Shown here: positions 5,471-8,007 of the stretch, one piece after another
Position numbering within the stretch: the first letter of the stretch is position 1
Layout of the letters: the number at the start of each line of letters is the position of its first letter
Source: a virus
UHGV virus genome: UHGV-0215671
Length of the DNA: 13,254 nt
Direction: 5' to 3' (one strand)
Notes under the pieces: generated by a model
Seen by the model: only the letters and a program-made list of their open reading frames with translations
Database searches by the model: none
What the model was told of the DNA's origin: nothing
Position numbers and translations under genes: made by a program

Positions 5471-5494
5471 AAAAAAGACGGTACAGAGACCGTC
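5471..5494 (-). terminator. Intrinsic terminator between the tRNA array and the packaging genes
   Basis: Minus-strand hairpin GACGGT-CTCTGT-ACCGTC (plus 5477-5494) followed by six U (plus A-run 5471-5476). Confidence 0.55.
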
Positions 5495-5656
5495 AAGGAG
5501 AAACCACAATGTACGTCAGAGACATACTGTATAAGGCTTCTTATAAAGTATAACTCTGTAAAAAAGCCCTGTCTAAAAATACTCTTCGGTAGCGAAAGGA
5601 AGAATACTTATAGCAGGGCATTATTATTATTTTAATTGAGAGAGAGTAAAATAACT

Positions 5657-5732
5657 TGGAGAATCCGAAGGGACTCGAACCCTTATAAACCTGTTTTGCA
5701 GACAGGCACATAGCCATTTCTGTCACGGATTC
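5657..5732 (-). tRNA. tRNA-Cys (GCA), 76 nt, CCA encoded
   Basis: Hand fold: acceptor GAATCCG/CGGATTC, anticodon stem CCTGT/ACAGG with loop CTGCAAA, T-arm AAGGG-TTCGAGT-CCCTT. Confidence 0.8.
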
Positions 5733-5736
5733 AAAT

Positions 5737-5829
5737 TGGAGGAAGATACCAGACTTGAACTGGTACACCGATTTCTCAGCTACTGGCAGTTTAGCAAACT
5801 GCTCCCTTACCTTTTAGGGTTAATCTTCC
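5737..5829 (-). tRNA. tRNA-Ser (GCU), class II, 93 nt
   Basis: Acceptor GGAAGAT/ATCTTCC, anticodon stem GCAGT/ACTGC with loop TTGCTAA, long variable arm, T-loop TTCAAGT. Confidence 0.75.
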
Positions 5830-5830
5830 A

Positions 5831-6565
5831 TTATTTCTGTAATGCGTTCTTCATTTCTGGTGTTGCAATAGTATCAATTACACCAGTTTTACAAGCATCA
5901 TCAAACCAGTCTGGTAAGATACCTGCTAAGAACCCATTGATATTCGTTTTAAGATACTCTGCAATAAGGGCAGCTTCTTCTTCAATCATCTGCACAACTT
6001 CATCTGCATAAGCTGTAATCTTTGAGATACCTTCATTAATCTTGCTAACAGCTTGGTTAGCTAAATCAGAAATAGTATCAAGACCTTTATCAATAGCATC
6101 TTGTAAGTCGCTTAATACATCATTAACACTATCTAGCGTGTTGTTAATCGTGTCAATAGCCTTTTGACCATATTCTGTAGCAACACCCATAATACCACTA
6201 AATGGTGTACAACCGACTTGCTCTCCTGCTGCACCCATAACATTGGAATATCCTTTTGCTACCTGCATACGTGAGGAAAACTCATCAATAGACTTTTGAC
6301 CATAATCTGTCAGCGTTTTAGTAGTCGATGTAGTGCTTGTCAGACTCGTTGTAAAGCTGTTAAGCAGAACTGTTGTAAGTCCAGCAGCAACAAGTTTATC
6401 CTTTATTGTAGGGTCTGTTACAGAGCTAATAGAGCTTACAAGTGATGTAGAGGCAGCTACGGTTCCACCGAGAACTGCTGCACCAGTAATAAGGGGATTA
6501 GAAAATCCTCTACCGGTTTTTAAGAGACTAAAAATCTCCTTACCTTGTTCTGTCATCTCTTTCAT
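5831..6565 (-). CDS. Hypothetical Ser/Thr/Ala-rich protein, 244 aa, embedded in the tRNA array
   Basis: Track ORF 5831-6628 begins inside tRNA-Phe; the internal ATG 6565-6563 is preceded by AAAGGTG with a 4-nt spacer, so start set to 6565. Stop lies 2 nt from the tRNA-Ser 5' end. Hydrophobic segment PLITGAAVLGGTVAASTSLV, then low-complexity S/T tract and a D/E-rich helical C-terminus. Confidence 0.5.
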   Translation of the reverse strand: MKEMTEQGKEIFSLLKTGRGFSNPLITGAAVLGGTVAASTSLVSSISSVTDPTIKDKLVAAGLTTVLLNSFTTSLTSTTSTTKTLTDYGQKSIDEFSSRMQVAKGYSNVMGAAGEQVGCTPFSGIMGVATEYGQKAIDTINNTLDSVNDVLSDLQDAIDKGLDTISDLANQAVSKINEGISKITAYADEVVQMIEEEAALIAEYLKTNINGFLAGILPDWFDDACKTGVIDTIATPEMKNALQK

Positions 6566-6581
6566 TAAGCACCTTTGGAAT

Positions 6582-6658
6582 TGGTAGTCCAGTGGGATTT
6601 GAACCCTCTTCTCATGTTTTTCAGACACGCGCTTTAACCATATAAGCTACTTGGACTA
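6582..6658 (-). tRNA. tRNA-Phe (GAA)
   Basis: Acceptor TAGTCCA/TGGACTA (U1-A72), anticodon stem CGTGT/ACATG with loop CTGAAAA, T-loop TTCAAAT; 3' boundary uncertain by about 2 nt. Confidence 0.65.
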
Positions 6659-6663
6659 TAAAT

Positions 6664-6739
6664 TGGGGTGACCTACGGGATTTGAACCCGTATAGACCAT
6701 GTTCACAGCATGGGTCATTACCATTTATGATAAGGCCAC
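6664..6739 (-). tRNA. tRNA-His (GUG)
   Basis: Acceptor GTGGCCT/AGGTCAC, D-stem TCAT/ATGA, anticodon stem CCATG/CATGG with loop CTGTGAA, discriminator C73, CCA encoded. Confidence 0.75.
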
Positions 6740-6740
6740 A

Positions 6741-6769
6741 TTTAAGGACTCTCGTAAGAATCCTTAAAT
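6741..6769. other. Inter-tRNA hairpin, 9-bp stem and 12-nt loop
   Basis: TTTAAGGA (6741-6748) pairs with TCCTTAAA (6761-6768), plus A6740-T6769; sits between tRNA-His and tRNA-Gln. Confidence 0.5.
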
Positions 6770-6770
6770 G

Positions 6771-6846
6771 TGGCAGCGGCATAAGGATTTGAACCTTAAT
6801 AAGACAGCTTCAGAGACTGCTGCATTGCCAGTTATGCTATACCGCT
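6771..6846 (-). tRNA. tRNA-Gln (CUG)
   Basis: Acceptor AGCGGTA/TGCCGCT, D-stem GCAT/ATGC, anticodon loop CTCTGAA on a stem with two G-U pairs, T-arm TAAGG-TTCAAAT-CCTTA. Confidence 0.6.
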
Positions 6847-6851
6847 AAATT

Positions 6852-6930
6852 TGGTACTCCATATCGGATTCGAACCGATACATAACACAGATTTTAAGTC
6901 TGGCCTCTCTGCCAATTGGAGTAATGGAGC
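6852..6930 (-). tRNA. tRNA with anticodon UAA (Leu by anticodon), 79 nt, short variable region
   Basis: Acceptor GCTCCAT/ATGGAGT, D-loop AATTGGCAG, anticodon stem CCAGA/TCTGT (one mismatch) with loop CTTAAAA, 7-nt variable region, T-arm ATCGG-TTCGAAT-CCGAT. Confidence 0.55.
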
Positions 6931-6932
6931 AT

Positions 6933-7008
6933 TGGCGGGGGATGTTGGAATTGAACCAACTTCTTCGATTTCAAAGACCGAGGTTTTAACCTTGTAAACT
7001 AATCCCCT
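6933..7008 (-). tRNA. tRNA-Gln (UUG)
   Basis: Acceptor AGGGGAT/ATCCCCC (A1/C72 unpaired), D-stem GTTT/AAAC, anticodon stem TCGGT/ATCGA with loop CTTTGAA, T-arm GTTGG-TTCAATT-CCAAC. Confidence 0.65.
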
Positions 7009-7016
7009 TTAAATCT

Positions 7017-7574
7017 TTATTTTCTTAGTGGATGAATAAAGAATGCCAACATAACTCTTTCCCTTGAGAATGCTCTTTCTTCTGGGACAACACTTTTAAG
7101 TTTCCATCCAACATAAATTCTCCAGTAGAATTGTTTACCAAAGATTTTAATTGATGGTACAAAAGCGAATAATCCCCAAGCATTACTGTTCCACATTAGT
7201 AGATAACCTGTCTGATTATCTTCAGGGTTAGAACTTACATTGATATTACCTTTCCACTTAGTAACATCTTTTACATCTCTTCCTAACACATGGTAAGAGA
7301 AGTTATAAGCTTTGTTTCTCCAGAGCCAACCAACTCTCTGCATATAGATACCAAGCTTACCAATCTTTCTAATCTTAGCCCATCGTTTGACATGGCCTTC
7401 ATCACCATCAATCGGGTTGTCGTAAGTTTCCATCCATCTAAATCCGAAAGGTAAGTGTCCTTTCTTCTCACTGTAAAATGGAACTACGAAAGGTGCTAAG
7501 ATAACTGCTAAGATTGCTGCAAATGGCTCTAACAAAGCTAAGAAAATCCATGAAGCATACTTCAAATATCTCAT
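7017..7574 (-). CDS. Hypothetical membrane-anchored protein, 185 aa, embedded in the tRNA array
   Basis: ORF track; ATG 7574-7572 preceded by AAAGAGG with an 8-nt spacer, 20 nt downstream of tRNA-Arg; hydrophobic N-terminus (WIFLALLEPFAAILAVILAPFVVPF) predicted transmembrane; Trp-rich. Confidence 0.55.
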   Translation of the reverse strand: MRYLKYASWIFLALLEPFAAILAVILAPFVVPFYSEKKGHLPFGFRWMETYDNPIDGDEGHVKRWAKIRKIGKLGIYMQRVGWLWRNKAYNFSYHVLGRDVKDVTKWKGNINVSSNPEDNQTGYLLMWNSNAWGLFAFVPSIKIFGKQFYWRIYVGWKLKSVVPEERAFSRERVMLAFFIHPLRK

Positions 7575-7593
7575 CTAAATAGCCTCTTTAAAT

Positions 7594-7669
7594 TGGCGCA
7601 GGATAAGGGATTCGAACCCCTATTAACAGCTTCGTAGACTGTTGCTCTATCCATTTGAACTAATCCTGC
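7594..7669 (-). tRNA. tRNA-Arg (ACG)
   Basis: Acceptor GCAGGAT/ATCCTGC, anticodon stem ACAGT/GCTGT with loop CTACGAA, T-arm AGGGG-TTCGAAT-CCCTT. Confidence 0.75.
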
Positions 7670-7674
7670 AAAAT

Positions 7675-7752
7675 TGGTGTTCCAAGACGGATTCGAACCG
7701 TCACTAATACAAGGTTTGAGCTTGCATCCTCTGCCAATTGGGATACTGGAAC
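7675..7752 (-). tRNA. tRNA with anticodon CAA (Leu by anticodon), 78 nt, short variable region
   Basis: Acceptor GTTCCAG/TTGGAAC, D-loop AATTGGCAG, anticodon stem GCAAG/CTTGT with loop CTCAAAC, T-arm GACGG-TTCGAAT-CCGTC. Confidence 0.6.
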
Positions 7753-7753
7753 A

Positions 7754-7828
7754 TGGTACTCACTAAAGGACTTGAACCTTTTTCTTCATCTTGTAAGGGT
7801 GGTGTTTTACCATATAAACTAAGCGAGT
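7754..7828 (-). tRNA. tRNA with anticodon UAC (Val by anticodon); weak anticodon stem
   Basis: Acceptor ACTCGCT/AGTGAGT, D-stem GTTT/AAAC, canonical loop CTTACAA but only 3 of 5 stem pairs, T-arm AAAGG-TTCAAGT-CCTTT. Confidence 0.5.
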
Positions 7829-7833
7829 ATGAA

Positions 7834-7920
7834 AGAGGTCTGAAGTTGTGCCGCTAACTCAACTCCGTGGAATTTGTTACGGTCTTCAGTTGACTCAAAG
7901 CGGTCTTTCACTTGACCTCT
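7834..7920 (-). ncRNA. 87-nt structured element of unknown function occupying a tRNA-sized slot (not a canonical tRNA)
   Basis: Terminal 7-bp complementarity AGAGGTC/GACCTCT, nested internal stems, no TTC-type T-loop, three GGTCT motifs; flanked 5-6 nt from tRNAs on both sides. Strand inferred from context only. Confidence 0.3.
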
Positions 7921-7924
7921 GAAT

Positions 7925-8000
7925 TGGTGCTCCCACAAGGATTCGAACCCTGATAAGTTGCTTACAAGGCAACCGTAATAGCCAATTATACGATAGGAGC
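7925..8000 (-). tRNA. tRNA-Thr (UGU)
   Basis: Acceptor GCTCCTA/TGGGAGC, anticodon stem GTTGC/GCAAC with loop CTTGTAA, T-loop TTCGAAT. Confidence 0.75.
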
Positions 8001-8007
8001 ATTAATT

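What the first reader, a model, noticed from the sequence alone, without database searches (positions are those of the whole stretch)
5831..7574. Two protein genes embedded inside the tRNA array
A 244-aa S/T-rich protein (5831-6565) and a 185-aa Trp-rich membrane-anchored protein (7017-7574) are wedged between tRNAs, with stops 2 and 9 nt from a tRNA 5' end and good Shine-Dalgarno sequences right after a tRNA 3' end. They are therefore co-transcribed with tRNAs and need precise processing. Neither resembles anything I recognise; a membrane protein made with the tRNAs could be a host-takeover or superinfection-exclusion factor.
Basis: partly seen in the sequence, partly recalled or inferred. 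Interest (0 to 1): 0.5.

Follow-up and report, generated by a model that had tools for sequence, protein, structure and literature searches.

The report
Two conserved phage genes among tRNAs
Two real, conserved protein genes of unknown function sit between the tRNA genes of a Felix O1-type phage; the arrangement was already on record, but the membrane protein turns up in the tRNA arrays of several unrelated phages and next to lysis genes in others.

Summary
The window is a Felixounavirus (Felix O1-like myovirus) at about 98% identity to many GenBank phages. All genes and 25 tRNAs lie on the minus strand.

The two ORFs are the orthologues of Felix O1 ORF49 (244 aa, Pfam DUF7217) and ORF48 (185 aa, Pfam DUF7338). 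Both were already annotated and were RT-PCR-positive in 2010. Both are under strong purifying selection (dN/dS 0.09 and 0.06).

No promoter-like or terminator-like site separates them from the flanking tRNAs, so co-transcription is likely. It is inferred, not shown.

ORF48/DUF7338:
- It has an N-terminal hydrophobic helix and a confidently modelled domain with no PDB fold match.
- It is an accessory gene, absent from the sister genus Kolesnikvirus.
- It recurs inside or just after tRNA arrays in at least four virulent phage groups.
- In five temperate-type phage contexts it sits between the tail-fibre genes and the holin/endolysin cassette.
- The "holin" label found in some GenBank records is unsupported.

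ORF49/DUF7217:
- It is an acidic all-helical bundle conserved across Ounavirinae and Ackermannviridae.
- There is no reliable evidence that it is a virion protein.

Neither function is known. The case is ordinary as a finding, with one modestly interesting side pattern.

The parts
5831..6565 (-). ORF1: 244-aa acidic, Ser/Thr-rich all-helical protein. It is the orthologue of Felix O1 ORF49 and belongs to Pfam DUF7217 / phrog_2114.
   Evidence: Pfam E 3e-89; phrog_2114 E 7e-111; dN/dS 0.093; AlphaFold2 pLDDT 88.5, ten helices; Felix O1 annotation.
6566..6581 (-). 16-nt leader between the tRNA-Phe CCA end and the ORF1 ATG. It carries the AAGGTG Shine-Dalgarno.
   Evidence: Sequence. The leader has the same length and near-identical sequence (ATTTCAAAGGTGCTTA) in 17 Felixounavirus loci, with a 1-nt variant in 2 more. 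A similar 16-nt leader (ATTCGTAAGGTGTATA) follows tRNA-Ser(gct) in Erwinia phage M7.
6582..6657 (-). tRNA-Phe(gaa), immediately upstream of ORF1.
5737..5829 (-). tRNA-Ser(gct). Its 5' end lies 1 nt after the ORF1 stop codon.
7017..7574 (-). ORF2: 185-aa basic, Trp-rich protein with an N-terminal hydrophobic helix. It is the orthologue of Felix O1 ORF48 and belongs to Pfam DUF7338 / phrog_2143.
7467..7559 (-). Codons ~6-36 of ORF2: the hydrophobic helix, a predicted membrane anchor.
   Evidence: Kyte-Doolittle 19-residue mean up to 2.38; modelled as one helix, residues 2-33. It holds family-conserved W9, P28 and F29.
7575..7593 (-). 19-nt leader between the tRNA-Arg CCA end and the ORF2 ATG. 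It carries the AAGAGG Shine-Dalgarno.
   Evidence: Sequence. DNA homology with locus L028, where the gene lies between different tRNAs, spans exactly window 7592..7011.
7594..7669 (-). tRNA-Arg(acg), immediately upstream of ORF2.
6933..7008 (-). tRNA-Gln(ttg). Its 5' end lies 8 nt after the ORF2 stop codon.
5657..10690 (-). The whole array of 25 tRNA genes in which both ORFs are embedded.
   Evidence: colinear with Felix O1 23.7-30.2 kb apart from three HNH endonuclease genes present only in Felix O1.
10717..10746 (-). Sigma-70-like promoter match (TTGACA-18-TAAAGT with TG) just upstream of the first tRNA. It is a candidate start of the array transcript.
   Evidence: This is a consensus match only; the number of such matches in the region is no higher than in shuffled sequence.
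5477..5494 (-). Terminator-like hairpin plus T-run after the last tRNA (Cys). It is a candidate end of the array transcript.
   Evidence: consensus match only.

Best explanation
Both ORFs are ordinary, functional phage genes: the orthologues of Felix O1 ORF48 and ORF49.

Expression (inferred, about 0.75): they lie in one long minus-strand transcription unit with the 25 tRNAs. They are translated from the polycistronic tRNA-mRNA precursor or from the pieces left after the host tRNA-processing enzymes cut it. RNase P would cut at the 5' end of the downstream tRNA. RNase E and exonucleases would act after the CCA of the upstream tRNA. Each ORF brings its own short leader with a Shine-Dalgarno sequence.

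ORF2 (DUF7338), shown: it is an accessory, phage-specific, single-domain protein with an N-terminal hydrophobic helix. It is absent from the sister genus Kolesnikvirus. It occurs within or just downstream of tRNA arrays in several virulent phage groups. In temperate-type phages it lies tightly packed between the tail-fibre or tail-fibre-assembly genes and the holin/endolysin/spanin cassette.

ORF2, inferred (about 0.35): it acts late at the cell envelope as an accessory of lysis, or of the tail-fibre/receptor interface. It is not the holin itself. In virulent phages it rides in the tRNA array because that array is a highly plastic, terminator-free expression site where segments are exchanged between phages.

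ORF1 (DUF7217), shown: it is a vertically conserved acidic helical-bundle protein of Ounavirinae and Ackermannviridae. In Ounavirinae it marks the boundary between the tRNA array and the terminase/portal/head block.

ORF1, inferred (about 0.3): it is a non-virion, lipid- or protein-binding amphipathic bundle that acts during morphogenesis or late infection.
For: Identity:
- The 2.1-kb stretch 5600-7700, which holds both ORFs, is 96-98% identical to about 200 Felixounavirus records.
- The ORFs match Felix O1 ORF48/ORF49.

Coding:
- dN/dS is 0.064 and 0.093, with off-frame controls above 1.
- Pfam and PHROG scores are far above threshold.

Expression:
- Leaders are 16 and 19 nt; trailers are 1 and 8 nt.
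- The ORF1 junctions are essentially invariant in 19 loci.
- No minus-strand promoter-like or terminator-like site lies next to either ORF.
- RT-PCR was positive for Felix O1 ORF48 and ORF49 (PMC3185647 Suppl. Table 1).

ORF2 as an accessory gene:
- tblastn and hmmsearch --max find nothing in the whole Erwinia phage M7 genome, while ORF1 is found at E 5e-63.
- The family has 883 clusters at 50% identity, nearly all single-domain proteins of 160-200 aa.
- It is almost absent from bacterial genomes: 6 loci in 185,579 species.

ORF2 and tRNA arrays:
- 43 of 44 IMG/VR loci with at least 55% identity have a same-strand tRNA 18-1095 nt upstream. None of 23 loci with at most 42% identity does.
- The carriers include Felixounavirus (between Arg or Leu and Gln), contig L028 (between Asp and Ser) and Avunavirus Av-05 (between Gly and Gln).
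- They also include several Straboviridae: RB43 and Nanhuvirus LPCS28 from annotated records, plus several other unnamed T4-sized contigs.
- At only 28% identity, Otagovirus VCM also has it (tRNA-Gln, 18 nt, gene, tRNA-Arg).
- DNA homology to L028 stops exactly at the leader and trailer.

ORF2 and lysis cassettes:
- L074, L056, L057, L065 and L094 show the order tail fibre (assembly), then DUF7338, then small membrane protein or holin, then endolysin, then spanin. Gaps are 0-11 nt or the genes overlap.

ORF1 conservation and fold:
- 45% identity in Kolesnikvirus and 28% in CBA120 orf171, with 20 invariant columns including two cysteines.
Against: - No transcript map exists, so co-transcription and processing are inferred from spacing and from weak consensus scans.
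- A promoter inside a tRNA gene cannot be excluded.
- If RNase P cuts 1 nt after the ORF1 stop codon, the mRNA would end almost at the stop. That is unfavourable for normal termination. Translation may therefore depend on the unprocessed precursor, or the design may carry a cost.
- The lysis-cassette context comes from only five distant homologues (28-38% identity). It may not transfer to the enterobacterial clade, where no lysis gene is adjacent. In Felix O1 the lysin ORF35 is about 9 kb away, in a different transcription unit.
- The position after the tail-fibre genes is also a classic site for superinfection-exclusion or receptor-masking genes.
- Membrane topology could not be determined. 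The N-terminal helix has very high model confidence and conserved residues, so it might pack against the domain rather than span the membrane.
- For ORF1 there is no functional evidence at all.
Confidence: 0.55

Rival explanations
1. ORF2 is the phage's holin, as several GenBank records label it.
For: - It is labelled 'holin' in HMD-P10, EcoM2, GEC_vB_B1, vB_YenM_P8 and vB_CbrM_HP1.
- It has one hydrophobic N-terminal helix followed by a larger domain, the same outline as the T4 holin T (my own knowledge).
- Distant homologues sit at the 5' edge of lysis cassettes.
Against: - No holin model in Pfam, PHROGs or NCBIfam matches it. phrog_2143 is listed as 'unknown function'.
- The temperate phages that carry it also carry separate holin-family genes: phrog_198 in L057 and phrog_199 in L065.
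- It is absent from Kolesnikvirus M7, which has its own annotated small holin beside the endolysin.
- The T4-like carriers belong to a family that is known to encode holin T (own knowledge, not checked here).
- In this genome it is not next to an endolysin or a spanin.
Confidence: 0.12
2. ORF2 is a superinfection-exclusion, receptor-masking or host-takeover membrane factor.
For: - It has a predicted membrane anchor.
- Its distribution among virulent phages of Enterobacteriaceae is patchy and looks horizontally transferred, with 55-61% identity between phages of different families.
- In temperate phages it lies directly after the tail-fibre and tail-fibre-assembly genes. That is a site where genes such as cor or llp are known to sit beside receptor-binding genes (own knowledge).
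Against: - It has no similarity to any known exclusion or defence protein (PADLOC, Pfam, NCBIfam, PDB).
- In temperate contexts it is packed tightly, by overlap or gaps of 3-11 nt, between late genes, with no room for its own promoter or terminator.
- It has been retained in strictly virulent phages over long divergence.
Confidence: 0.2
3. The link between DUF7338 and tRNA arrays is functional: the protein works with, or protects, phage tRNAs or translation.
For: The gene is repeatedly embedded in tRNA arrays across Ounavirinae, Otagovirus, Avunavirus and several Straboviridae, at several different positions within the arrays.
Against: - It is a hydrophobic-helix protein with no RNA-binding or nuclease signature.
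- 23 more distant homologues, including all five in temperate-type contexts, have no same-strand tRNA within 4 kb.
- Kolesnikvirus keeps a 27-tRNA array without it.
- tRNA arrays of these phages also hold unrelated small ORFs and mobile HNH genes. This fits a plastic-region explanation.
Confidence: 0.05
4. ORF1 is a virion or internal-head/ejection protein.
For: - The Felix O1 paper lists 'Gp49' as the 51-kDa virion band.
- Homologues in two Kuttervirus records are annotated '(putative) structural protein'.
- There are weak profile similarities to tape-measure and phiKZ internal-head proteins.
- Its position is next to the head and packaging genes.
Against: - ORF49 is 244 aa (25.7 kDa), not 51 kDa.
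- The paper calls its 'Gp49' the likely sheath 'by synteny and mass'. That description fits ORF63, the 450-aa tail sheath upstream of the tube gene, so the number is probably a slip.
- ORF49 is absent from that paper's shotgun virion list.
- VpaE1 virion mass spectrometry identified 22 proteins. The paper's gene table (Table S1) still lists the 244-aa and 185-aa orthologues as 'hypothetical', while some other ORFs there are named 'structural protein'. The list of the 22 proteins is in a figure that was not available, so this is indirect.
- Sajous1 (Kuttervirus) virion mass spectrometry does not list a gene at the expected position. Its gp214-217 are different proteins.
- No chain of a solved virion structure matches.
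Confidence: 0.15
5. The ORFs are transcribed from their own promoters hidden inside the upstream tRNA genes and are not part of the tRNA precursor.
For: - The array is long (5 kb) and contains at least one strong internal promoter-like site, at 9318..9290 (11 of 12 consensus positions).
- The consensus scan is insensitive to promoters that are not sigma-70-like.
Against: - No promoter-like match lies in tRNA-Arg or tRNA-Phe on the coding strand.
- The leaders are only 16-19 nt long.
- The same leader-plus-ORF unit works behind different tRNAs: Phe versus Ser(gct) for ORF1; Arg, Leu and Asp for ORF2.
Confidence: 0.1

Closest known systems
Felix O1 ORF48 and ORF49 (NP_944875, NP_944879) and their orthologues in about 200 Felixounavirus genomes
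   Same: Same genes, same order and same tRNA neighbours, at 95-98% protein identity. Both were RT-PCR-positive in Felix O1.
   Different: Nothing of substance. The window phage lacks the three HNH endonuclease genes that interrupt the Felix O1 array.
tRNA-mRNA co-transcripts: the E. coli thrU-tyrU-glyT-thrT-tufB operon and the mitochondrial 'tRNA punctuation' model (own knowledge)
   Same: Coding sequences abut tRNA genes on the same strand with almost no spacer. The tRNA-processing enzymes would therefore define the mRNA ends.
   Different: No transcript or processing data exist for this phage. Here the mRNAs carry bacterial Shine-Dalgarno leaders of 16-19 nt. The resemblance is in how it would work; no membership is claimed.
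Free-standing homing endonuclease genes inside phage tRNA clusters (Felix O1 ORF44/45/47 HNH; T4 segB, own knowledge)
   Same: These too are protein genes inserted precisely between tRNA genes in the same array.
   Different: ORF1 and ORF2 have no nuclease domain. They are fixed in all Felixounavirus genomes rather than variably present.
T4 holin T (class III holin: one transmembrane helix plus a large periplasmic domain; own knowledge)
   Same: The outline is similar: an N-terminal hydrophobic helix followed by a globular domain of about 150 aa. Homologues border lysis cassettes in temperate phages.
   Different: There is no sequence or fold similarity. It co-occurs with separate holin-family genes. 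It is dispensable at genus level.
CBA120 orf171 and other Ackermannviridae DUF7217 proteins
   Same: Homologous over the full length with ORF1 (28% identity, conserved Cys pair).
   Different: In Ackermannviridae the gene is not near tRNAs. It lies between the head genes and the tail-completion gene, next to a SLOG-domain gene.

Membership tests
Pfam DUF7338 (PF24027) / phrog_2143 | Full-length match to the family profile above the curated cut-off. | tested here: met
   208.3 bits against a cut-off of 27, covering residues 1-184. phrog_2143 E 8.6e-81.
Pfam DUF7217 (PF23854) / phrog_2114 | Full-length match to the family profile above the curated cut-off. | tested here: met
   299.2 bits against a cut-off of 29, covering residues 8-243. 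phrog_2114 E 6.8e-111.
Holin | At least one transmembrane segment. | tested here: met
   ORF2 residues ~6-36 have a Kyte-Doolittle mean up to 2.38 and are modelled as a single helix.
Holin | Similarity to a described holin family by sequence or fold. | tested here: not met
Holin | Encoded beside the endolysin or spanin genes and serving as the phage's holin. | tested here: not met
   There is no lysis gene in the window. The Felix O1 lysin ORF35 lies about 9 kb away, in another transcription unit. Kolesnikvirus lacks the gene. Temperate carriers have separate holin genes.
Holin | Forms lethal membrane lesions that release endolysin. | not testable with these tools
   Needs expression in the host.
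Superinfection-exclusion or defence proteins (Imm, Sp, Sie, Cor, Llp and the PADLOC set) | Similarity to a known exclusion or defence family. | tested here: not met
   PADLOC gives no hit for ORF2 and only weak coiled-coil noise for ORF1. Nothing in Pfam or NCBIfam.
Superinfection-exclusion or defence proteins (Imm, Sp, Sie, Cor, Llp and the PADLOC set) | Blocks a second infection when expressed. | not testable with these tools
   Needs an experiment.
tRNA-mRNA co-transcript (tufB-operon or tRNA-punctuation type) | Same strand, with no promoter or terminator between the tRNA and the coding sequence. | tested here: met
   Leaders are 16 and 19 nt; trailers are 1 and 8 nt. No coding-strand promoter-like or terminator-like site is adjacent. 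The scan is consensus-based only.
tRNA-mRNA co-transcript (tufB-operon or tRNA-punctuation type) | A single primary transcript spanning tRNAs and ORFs, cut by RNase P and RNase E. | not testable with these tools
   Only RT-PCR presence of ORF48/49 RNA in Felix O1 is on record.
Moron (autonomous accessory gene cassette) | Own promoter and terminator flanking the gene. | tested here: not met
   None next to either ORF in the window. DUF7338 genes in temperate phages overlap or abut their neighbours.
Moron (autonomous accessory gene cassette) | Patchy presence among related phages, with evidence of horizontal transfer. | tested here: met
   This holds for ORF2 only. It is absent from Kolesnikvirus and shares 55-61% identity with Straboviridae and 79% with Avunavirus. 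ORF1 is conserved across the subfamily.
Homing endonuclease (the usual protein-coding inserts in phage tRNA arrays) | HNH, GIY-YIG or LAGLIDADG nuclease domain. | tested here: not met
   No such domain in either ORF.
Small terminase subunit (considered for ORF1 because of its position upstream of TerL) | A single packaging-specific gene next to TerL in all carriers. | tested here: not met
   In CBA120 the homologue lies between the major head protein gene and the tail-completion gene. The Kuttervirus Sajous1 has a separately listed small terminase, gp147. There is no terminase-small family hit.
Virion structural protein (ORF1) | Detected in purified particles. | tested here: inconclusive
   The Felix O1 'Gp49 = 51 kDa' report conflicts with the 25.7-kDa size and fits ORF63, the sheath. 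The orthologue is listed as 'hypothetical', not 'structural', in the VpaE1 gene table, and the expected gene is not in the Sajous1 virion list.

The most novel reading that the evidence does not exclude
DUF7338 could be a new class of lysis-control or envelope-acting phage membrane protein. It has a fold not seen in the PDB. In large virulent myoviruses its synthesis could be set by processing of the tRNA precursor. Cuts by RNase P and RNase E right at the ends of its coding sequence would then couple the amount or timing of this protein to tRNA maturation. Its repeated capture inside tRNA arrays of unrelated phages would then be selected for, not accidental.
Probability: 0.08. Interest if true: 0.65.

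Novelty: already known. Interest (0 to 1): 0.28.

Why it matters
As submitted, the finding restates a documented feature of Felix O1-type genomes: two conserved hypothetical genes inside the tRNA cluster. It changes little.

What could matter is DUF7338. It is a large family (883 clusters at 50% identity) that is essentially confined to phages. Its structure model is confident, yet it has no structural relative and no literature.

The family has two sharply defined genomic habitats. One is the tRNA arrays of virulent myoviruses. The other is the tail-fibre/lysis-cassette junction of temperate phages.

That makes it a tractable target for discovering a new late or lysis-associated function. It also offers a test of whether phage tRNA arrays serve as exchange and expression platforms for accessory genes.

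The analysis also flags that the 'holin' label spreading through GenBank has no support. And it flags that the 'Gp49 structural protein' statement in the Felix O1 paper is probably a numbering error.

Tried and rejected

2. The 'GTP-binding domain' lead for ORF1 (phrog_289). This profile is a chimera. Its N-terminal part matches CBA120 orf174, a SLOG/YAcAr domain. Its C-terminal part matches orf171, the ORF1 homologue. The label says nothing about ORF1.

3. ORF1 as a virion protein. The Felix O1 'Gp49' report was traced to a probable mislabelling of the ORF63 sheath. The VpaE1 gene table and the Sajous1 virion list give no support.

4. ORF1 as the small terminase. Rejected because the CBA120 homologue lies away from the packaging genes and a Kuttervirus has a separate TerS.

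5. A shared two-gene cassette (a small ORF of about 75 aa plus DUF7338) between wV8-type Felixounavirus and Av-05. Both have an upstream small ORF that overlaps by ATGA, but their similarity is not significant (E 0.30).

6. An apparent DUF7338-holin fusion in L057. It was an artefact of my crude ORF call in a high-GC contig. The holin is a separate gene that starts just after DUF7338.

7. Literature searches for DUF7338, DUF7217 and a Felixounavirus transcriptome returned nothing useful.

8. Defence-system similarity (PADLOC): none.

9. RNA folding of the junctions. The tRNA cloverleaves are recovered for three of the four junctions; the tRNA-Phe/ORF1 junction gives no significant fold. No convincing extra structure appears around the ribosome-binding sites.

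10. Membrane topology by the positive-inside rule. Charges on the two sides of the helix are balanced and vary across the family, so no call is possible.


Full report
**What is in the window.**
ARAGORN finds 25 tRNA genes between 5657 and 10690, all on the minus strand, and Rfam confirms them. The 2.1-kb stretch 5600-7700, which holds both ORFs, is 96-98% identical to about 200 GenBank phages of the genus Felixounavirus. The window is colinear with Felix O1 positions ~23.5-30.6 kb. The genes flanking the array are:
- a 471-aa DUF2828/DUF7788/vWA protein upstream;
- a 66-aa ORF, the large terminase, the portal and head genes downstream.

**Checking the observation.**
- ORF1 (6565..5831, 244 aa) starts 16 nt after the encoded CCA of tRNA-Phe. 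AAGGTG lies 4 nt before the ATG. The ORF ends 1 nt before tRNA-Ser(gct).
- ORF2 (7574..7017, 185 aa) starts 19 nt after the CCA of tRNA-Arg. AAGAGG lies 8 nt before the ATG. The ORF ends 8 nt before tRNA-Gln(ttg).
- ORF1 is 20.5% Ser+Thr with pI 4.4. ORF2 has 10 Trp, pI 10.0 and a strongly hydrophobic N-terminal segment.

The description is accurate.

**Are they genes?**
Across 22-24 distinct Felixounavirus alleles, dN/dS is 0.093 for ORF1 and 0.064 for ORF2. The same alignments read in the other two frames give 1.2-3.1. Both match curated families over their full length: DUF7217/phrog_2114 and DUF7338/phrog_2143. They are Felix O1 ORF49 and ORF48. The 2010 genome paper listed these as conserved hypothetical proteins, ORF48 as a 'membrane protein', both positive by RT-PCR (PMC3185647, Suppl. 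Table 1). The finding is therefore real but already documented.

**Expression.**
- The consensus scan finds no promoter-like or terminator-like site on the coding strand next to either ORF.
- Promoter-like matches lie upstream of the first tRNA (10746..10717 and 10837..10809), and one lies inside the array (9318..9290).
- A terminator-like hairpin follows the last tRNA (5494..5477).
- These are weak consensus matches, no more frequent than in shuffled sequence.
- The ORF1 junctions are essentially invariant in 19 related loci: a 16-nt leader ATTTCAAAGGTGCTTA (17 nt in two of them) and a 1-2 nt trailer.
- In Erwinia phage M7 a very similar 16-nt leader (ATTCGTAAGGTGTATA) follows a different tRNA, Ser(gct).
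- DNA homology between the window and locus L028 covers exactly 7592..7011, that is leader, ORF and 6 nt. In L028, ORF2 lies between tRNA-Asp and tRNA-Ser.

The unit that is conserved and moved is thus 'short Shine-Dalgarno leader plus ORF', placed directly behind whatever tRNA precedes it. Co-transcription with the tRNAs is the economical reading (I put it at about 0.75), but it is inferred. One consequence, also inferred: RNase P cleavage at tRNA-Ser would leave the ORF1 message ending 1 nt past its stop codon. Translation may then rely on unprocessed precursor.

**ORF2 (DUF7338): structure and spread.**
- AlphaFold2 with 32 homologues gives pLDDT 94.6. The model has a helix at residues 2-33 followed by a mixed helical and beta-sheet domain.
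- Invariant residues cluster in three motifs: T50, D52 and G57 in ETYDNPIDGDxGH; W83, W85, R86, N87 and Y90 in WLWRNKAYNF; and W157 in GWKLK.
- An exhaustive profile search finds 883 clusters at 50% identity. Nearly all are 160-200 aa with a single domain.
- Only 6 loci were found in 185,579 bacterial and archaeal species. One is an obvious 178-kb T4-like phage contig, and at least two others lie among phage genes.
- The gene is absent from the complete genome of the sister genus Kolesnikvirus, while ORF1 is present there. It is an accessory gene.

**ORF2: two genomic habitats.**

*tRNA arrays of virulent myoviruses.*
- Of 44 IMG/VR loci whose protein is at least 55% identical, 43 have a same-strand tRNA 18-1095 nt upstream.
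- None of 23 loci at 42% identity or less does.
- The carriers are several lineages with different flanking tRNAs:
  - Felixounavirus (between Arg or Leu and Gln);
  - contig L028 (between Asp and Ser);
  - Avunavirus Av-05 (between Gly and Gln);
  - several Straboviridae, including RB43 and Nanhuvirus LPCS28 from annotated records, plus other unnamed T4-sized contigs.
- Pseudomonas phage VCM (Otagovirus) is only 28% identical, yet it has tRNA-Gln, 18 nt, the gene, then tRNA-Arg.

*The tail-fibre/lysis junction of temperate-type phages.*
- In five distant contexts the gene lies tightly between tail-fibre or tail-fibre-assembly genes and the lysis cassette.
- L074: tail-fibre proteins, DUF7338, an 89-aa membrane protein, endolysin, and a spanin further on.
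- L056: tail fibre J, DUF7338, a membrane protein, endolysin, a protein with two hydrophobic segments, spanins.
- L057: tail-fibre assembly protein, DUF7338, holin phrog_198.
- L065: DUF7338, a 74-aa ORF, holin phrog_199, endolysin, a spanin-like pair, integrase.
- L094: tail fibre, tail-fibre assembly protein, DUF7338, two small ORFs, endolysin, Rz.

This points to a late, envelope- or lysis-associated role. It also argues against DUF7338 being the holin, because separate holin-family genes are present. The 'holin' label in some GenBank records has no basis in any library searched.

**Why tRNA arrays?**
The arrays of these phages also hold other small ORFs and mobile HNH endonuclease genes. 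Felix O1 has three HNH genes that are exactly absent from this window, with break points at about 9358-9410, 8911/8912 and 8002-8005. Stretches of tRNA-array DNA are shared between Av-05 and Felixounavirus: the tRNA-Gly genes are 88% identical, and an adjoining stretch is 78% identical. I infer that the array is a plastic, terminator-free region where segments recombine between co-infecting phages and any inserted ORF is expressed. A direct functional tie to tRNAs is unlikely (0.05), for three reasons: the protein has no RNA-related feature, distant homologues are not near tRNAs, and Kolesnikvirus keeps 27 tRNAs without it.

**ORF1 (DUF7217).**
- Homologues occur in all Ounavirinae examined and in Ackermannviridae: 45% identity in Erwinia phage M7 and 28% in CBA120 orf171.
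- There are 20 invariant columns, including C119 and C225.
- In M7 the gene follows the last tRNA and precedes two small ORFs and the terminase.
- In Felixounavirus two tRNAs (Ser-gct, Cys) lie downstream of it. It is therefore better seen as the first gene of the packaging/head block, into which tRNAs were interleaved.
- In CBA120 it is not near tRNAs.

Evidence that it is a virion protein does not hold up:
- The Felix O1 text assigns a 51-kDa band to 'Gp49' and calls it the likely sheath 'by synteny and mass'. ORF49 is 25.7 kDa, and ORF63 is the 450-aa sheath.
- The VpaE1 gene table lists the orthologue as 'hypothetical', not 'structural'. The figure with the 22 virion proteins found by mass spectrometry was not available.
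- The Sajous1 virion list does not include the expected gene.

The weakly hydrophobic, Gly/Ala/Ser/Thr-rich segment at residues 25-47 explains the 'putative membrane protein' label. It scores only at the borderline for a membrane span.

**Comparison with known systems, and verdict.**
The arrangement works like known tRNA-mRNA co-transcripts (the E. coli tufB operon, mitochondrial tRNA punctuation; own knowledge). Membership cannot be tested without transcript data. Neither ORF meets the tested criteria for a holin family, a defence or exclusion family, a homing endonuclease or a small terminase. As a finding it is already known, and the window phage adds nothing new. The residual interest lies in DUF7338: a large phage-specific family with no structural relative, no literature and two distinct genomic habitats.

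Interest 0.28; novelty: already known.

Noticed in passing
window 8002-8005, 8911-8912 and 9358-9410, compared with Felix O1 (L006 4031-4516, 5004-5396, 6314-6727): Felix O1 carries three HNH endonuclease genes (ORF44, 45, 47) inserted between tRNAs. They are cleanly absent from this window. The embedded protein genes therefore fall into a mobile class (HNH) and a fixed class (ORF48/49).
   Followed up: partly
window 8912-8996 (-): A tRNA-like element with an acceptor stem, T-arm and CCA end is not called by ARAGORN. Rfam gives only a weak tmRNA-type hit (22 bits, E 1.2e-5, below the gathering score). HMD-P10 annotates the equivalent as tRNA-Arg. It may be a degenerate or unusual tRNA.
   Followed up: partly
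window 10856-12271 (-): A 471-aa protein with DUF2828 + DUF7788/vWA domains (phrog_850 'RNA-binding protein', Felix O1 ORF42) lies directly upstream of the tRNA array. It has no PDB sequence match and is absent from Kolesnikvirus M7. A link to tRNA or RNA handling is possible but was not examined.
   Followed up: partly
window 9290-9318 (-): This is the best sigma-70-like promoter match in the region (TTGACA-17-TATAGT, 11 of 12 positions). It lies inside the tRNA array just downstream of tRNA-Ile, in a 658-nt stretch with no called gene (8676-9333).
   Followed up: no
L010 3762-4004 (phage wV8 type) and L086 3777-4004 (Av-05): About half of the Felixounavirus loci carry an extra 80-aa ORF between tRNA-Arg and the ORF2 orthologue, with its own Shine-Dalgarno right after the tRNA CCA. 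Av-05 has a 75-aa ORF at the same place. In both the small ORF overlaps the DUF7338 start by ATGA. The two small proteins are not significantly similar (E 0.30). The window phage lacks this ORF.
   Followed up: yes
Felix O1 paper PMC3185647, section 2.7, compared with NC_005282 ORF49 and ORF63: The published statement that 'Gp49' is the 51-kDa virion band and the likely sheath does not fit ORF49 (244 aa). It fits ORF63, the tail sheath (450 aa). This is probably a numbering slip that has entered the list of Felix O1 'structural proteins'.
   Followed up: yes
PHROG phrog_289 ('GTP-binding domain'); CBA120 L004 5338-5757 and 5992-6717: The profile is a chimera of two separate CBA120 genes: orf174 (SLOG/YAcAr domain) and orf171 (DUF7217). 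Pharokka-type annotation therefore mislabels DUF7217 proteins as 'GTP-binding domain' in some Klebsiella phage records.
   Followed up: yes
P0029 (172 aa, on a 1161-nt contig): This protein joins the N-terminal half of DUF7338 to a Gp53-like_C tail-fibre C-terminal domain. It is either a real recombinant or an assembly chimera. It is consistent with DUF7338 genes lying next to tail-fibre genes.
   Followed up: no
L093 (NZ_JBHSCL010000010.1, a 178,077-bp contig in a Flagellimonas marina assembly): A T4-sized contig encodes a DUF7338 protein 58% identical to ORF2. It looks like a T4-like enterobacterial phage genome present as a contaminant or passenger in a Flavobacteriia genome assembly.
   Followed up: no
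L005 5886-5978 and 5995-6729 (Erwinia phage M7), compared with window 5737-5829 and 5831-6565: tRNA-Ser(gct) lies immediately upstream of the ORF1 orthologue in Kolesnikvirus but immediately downstream of it in Felixounavirus. The 16-nt leader of the ORF is conserved in both. The tRNA and the ORF have swapped order during divergence of the subfamily. The RefSeq CDS for M7 gp013 (275 aa) is over-extended into the tRNA.
   Followed up: partly
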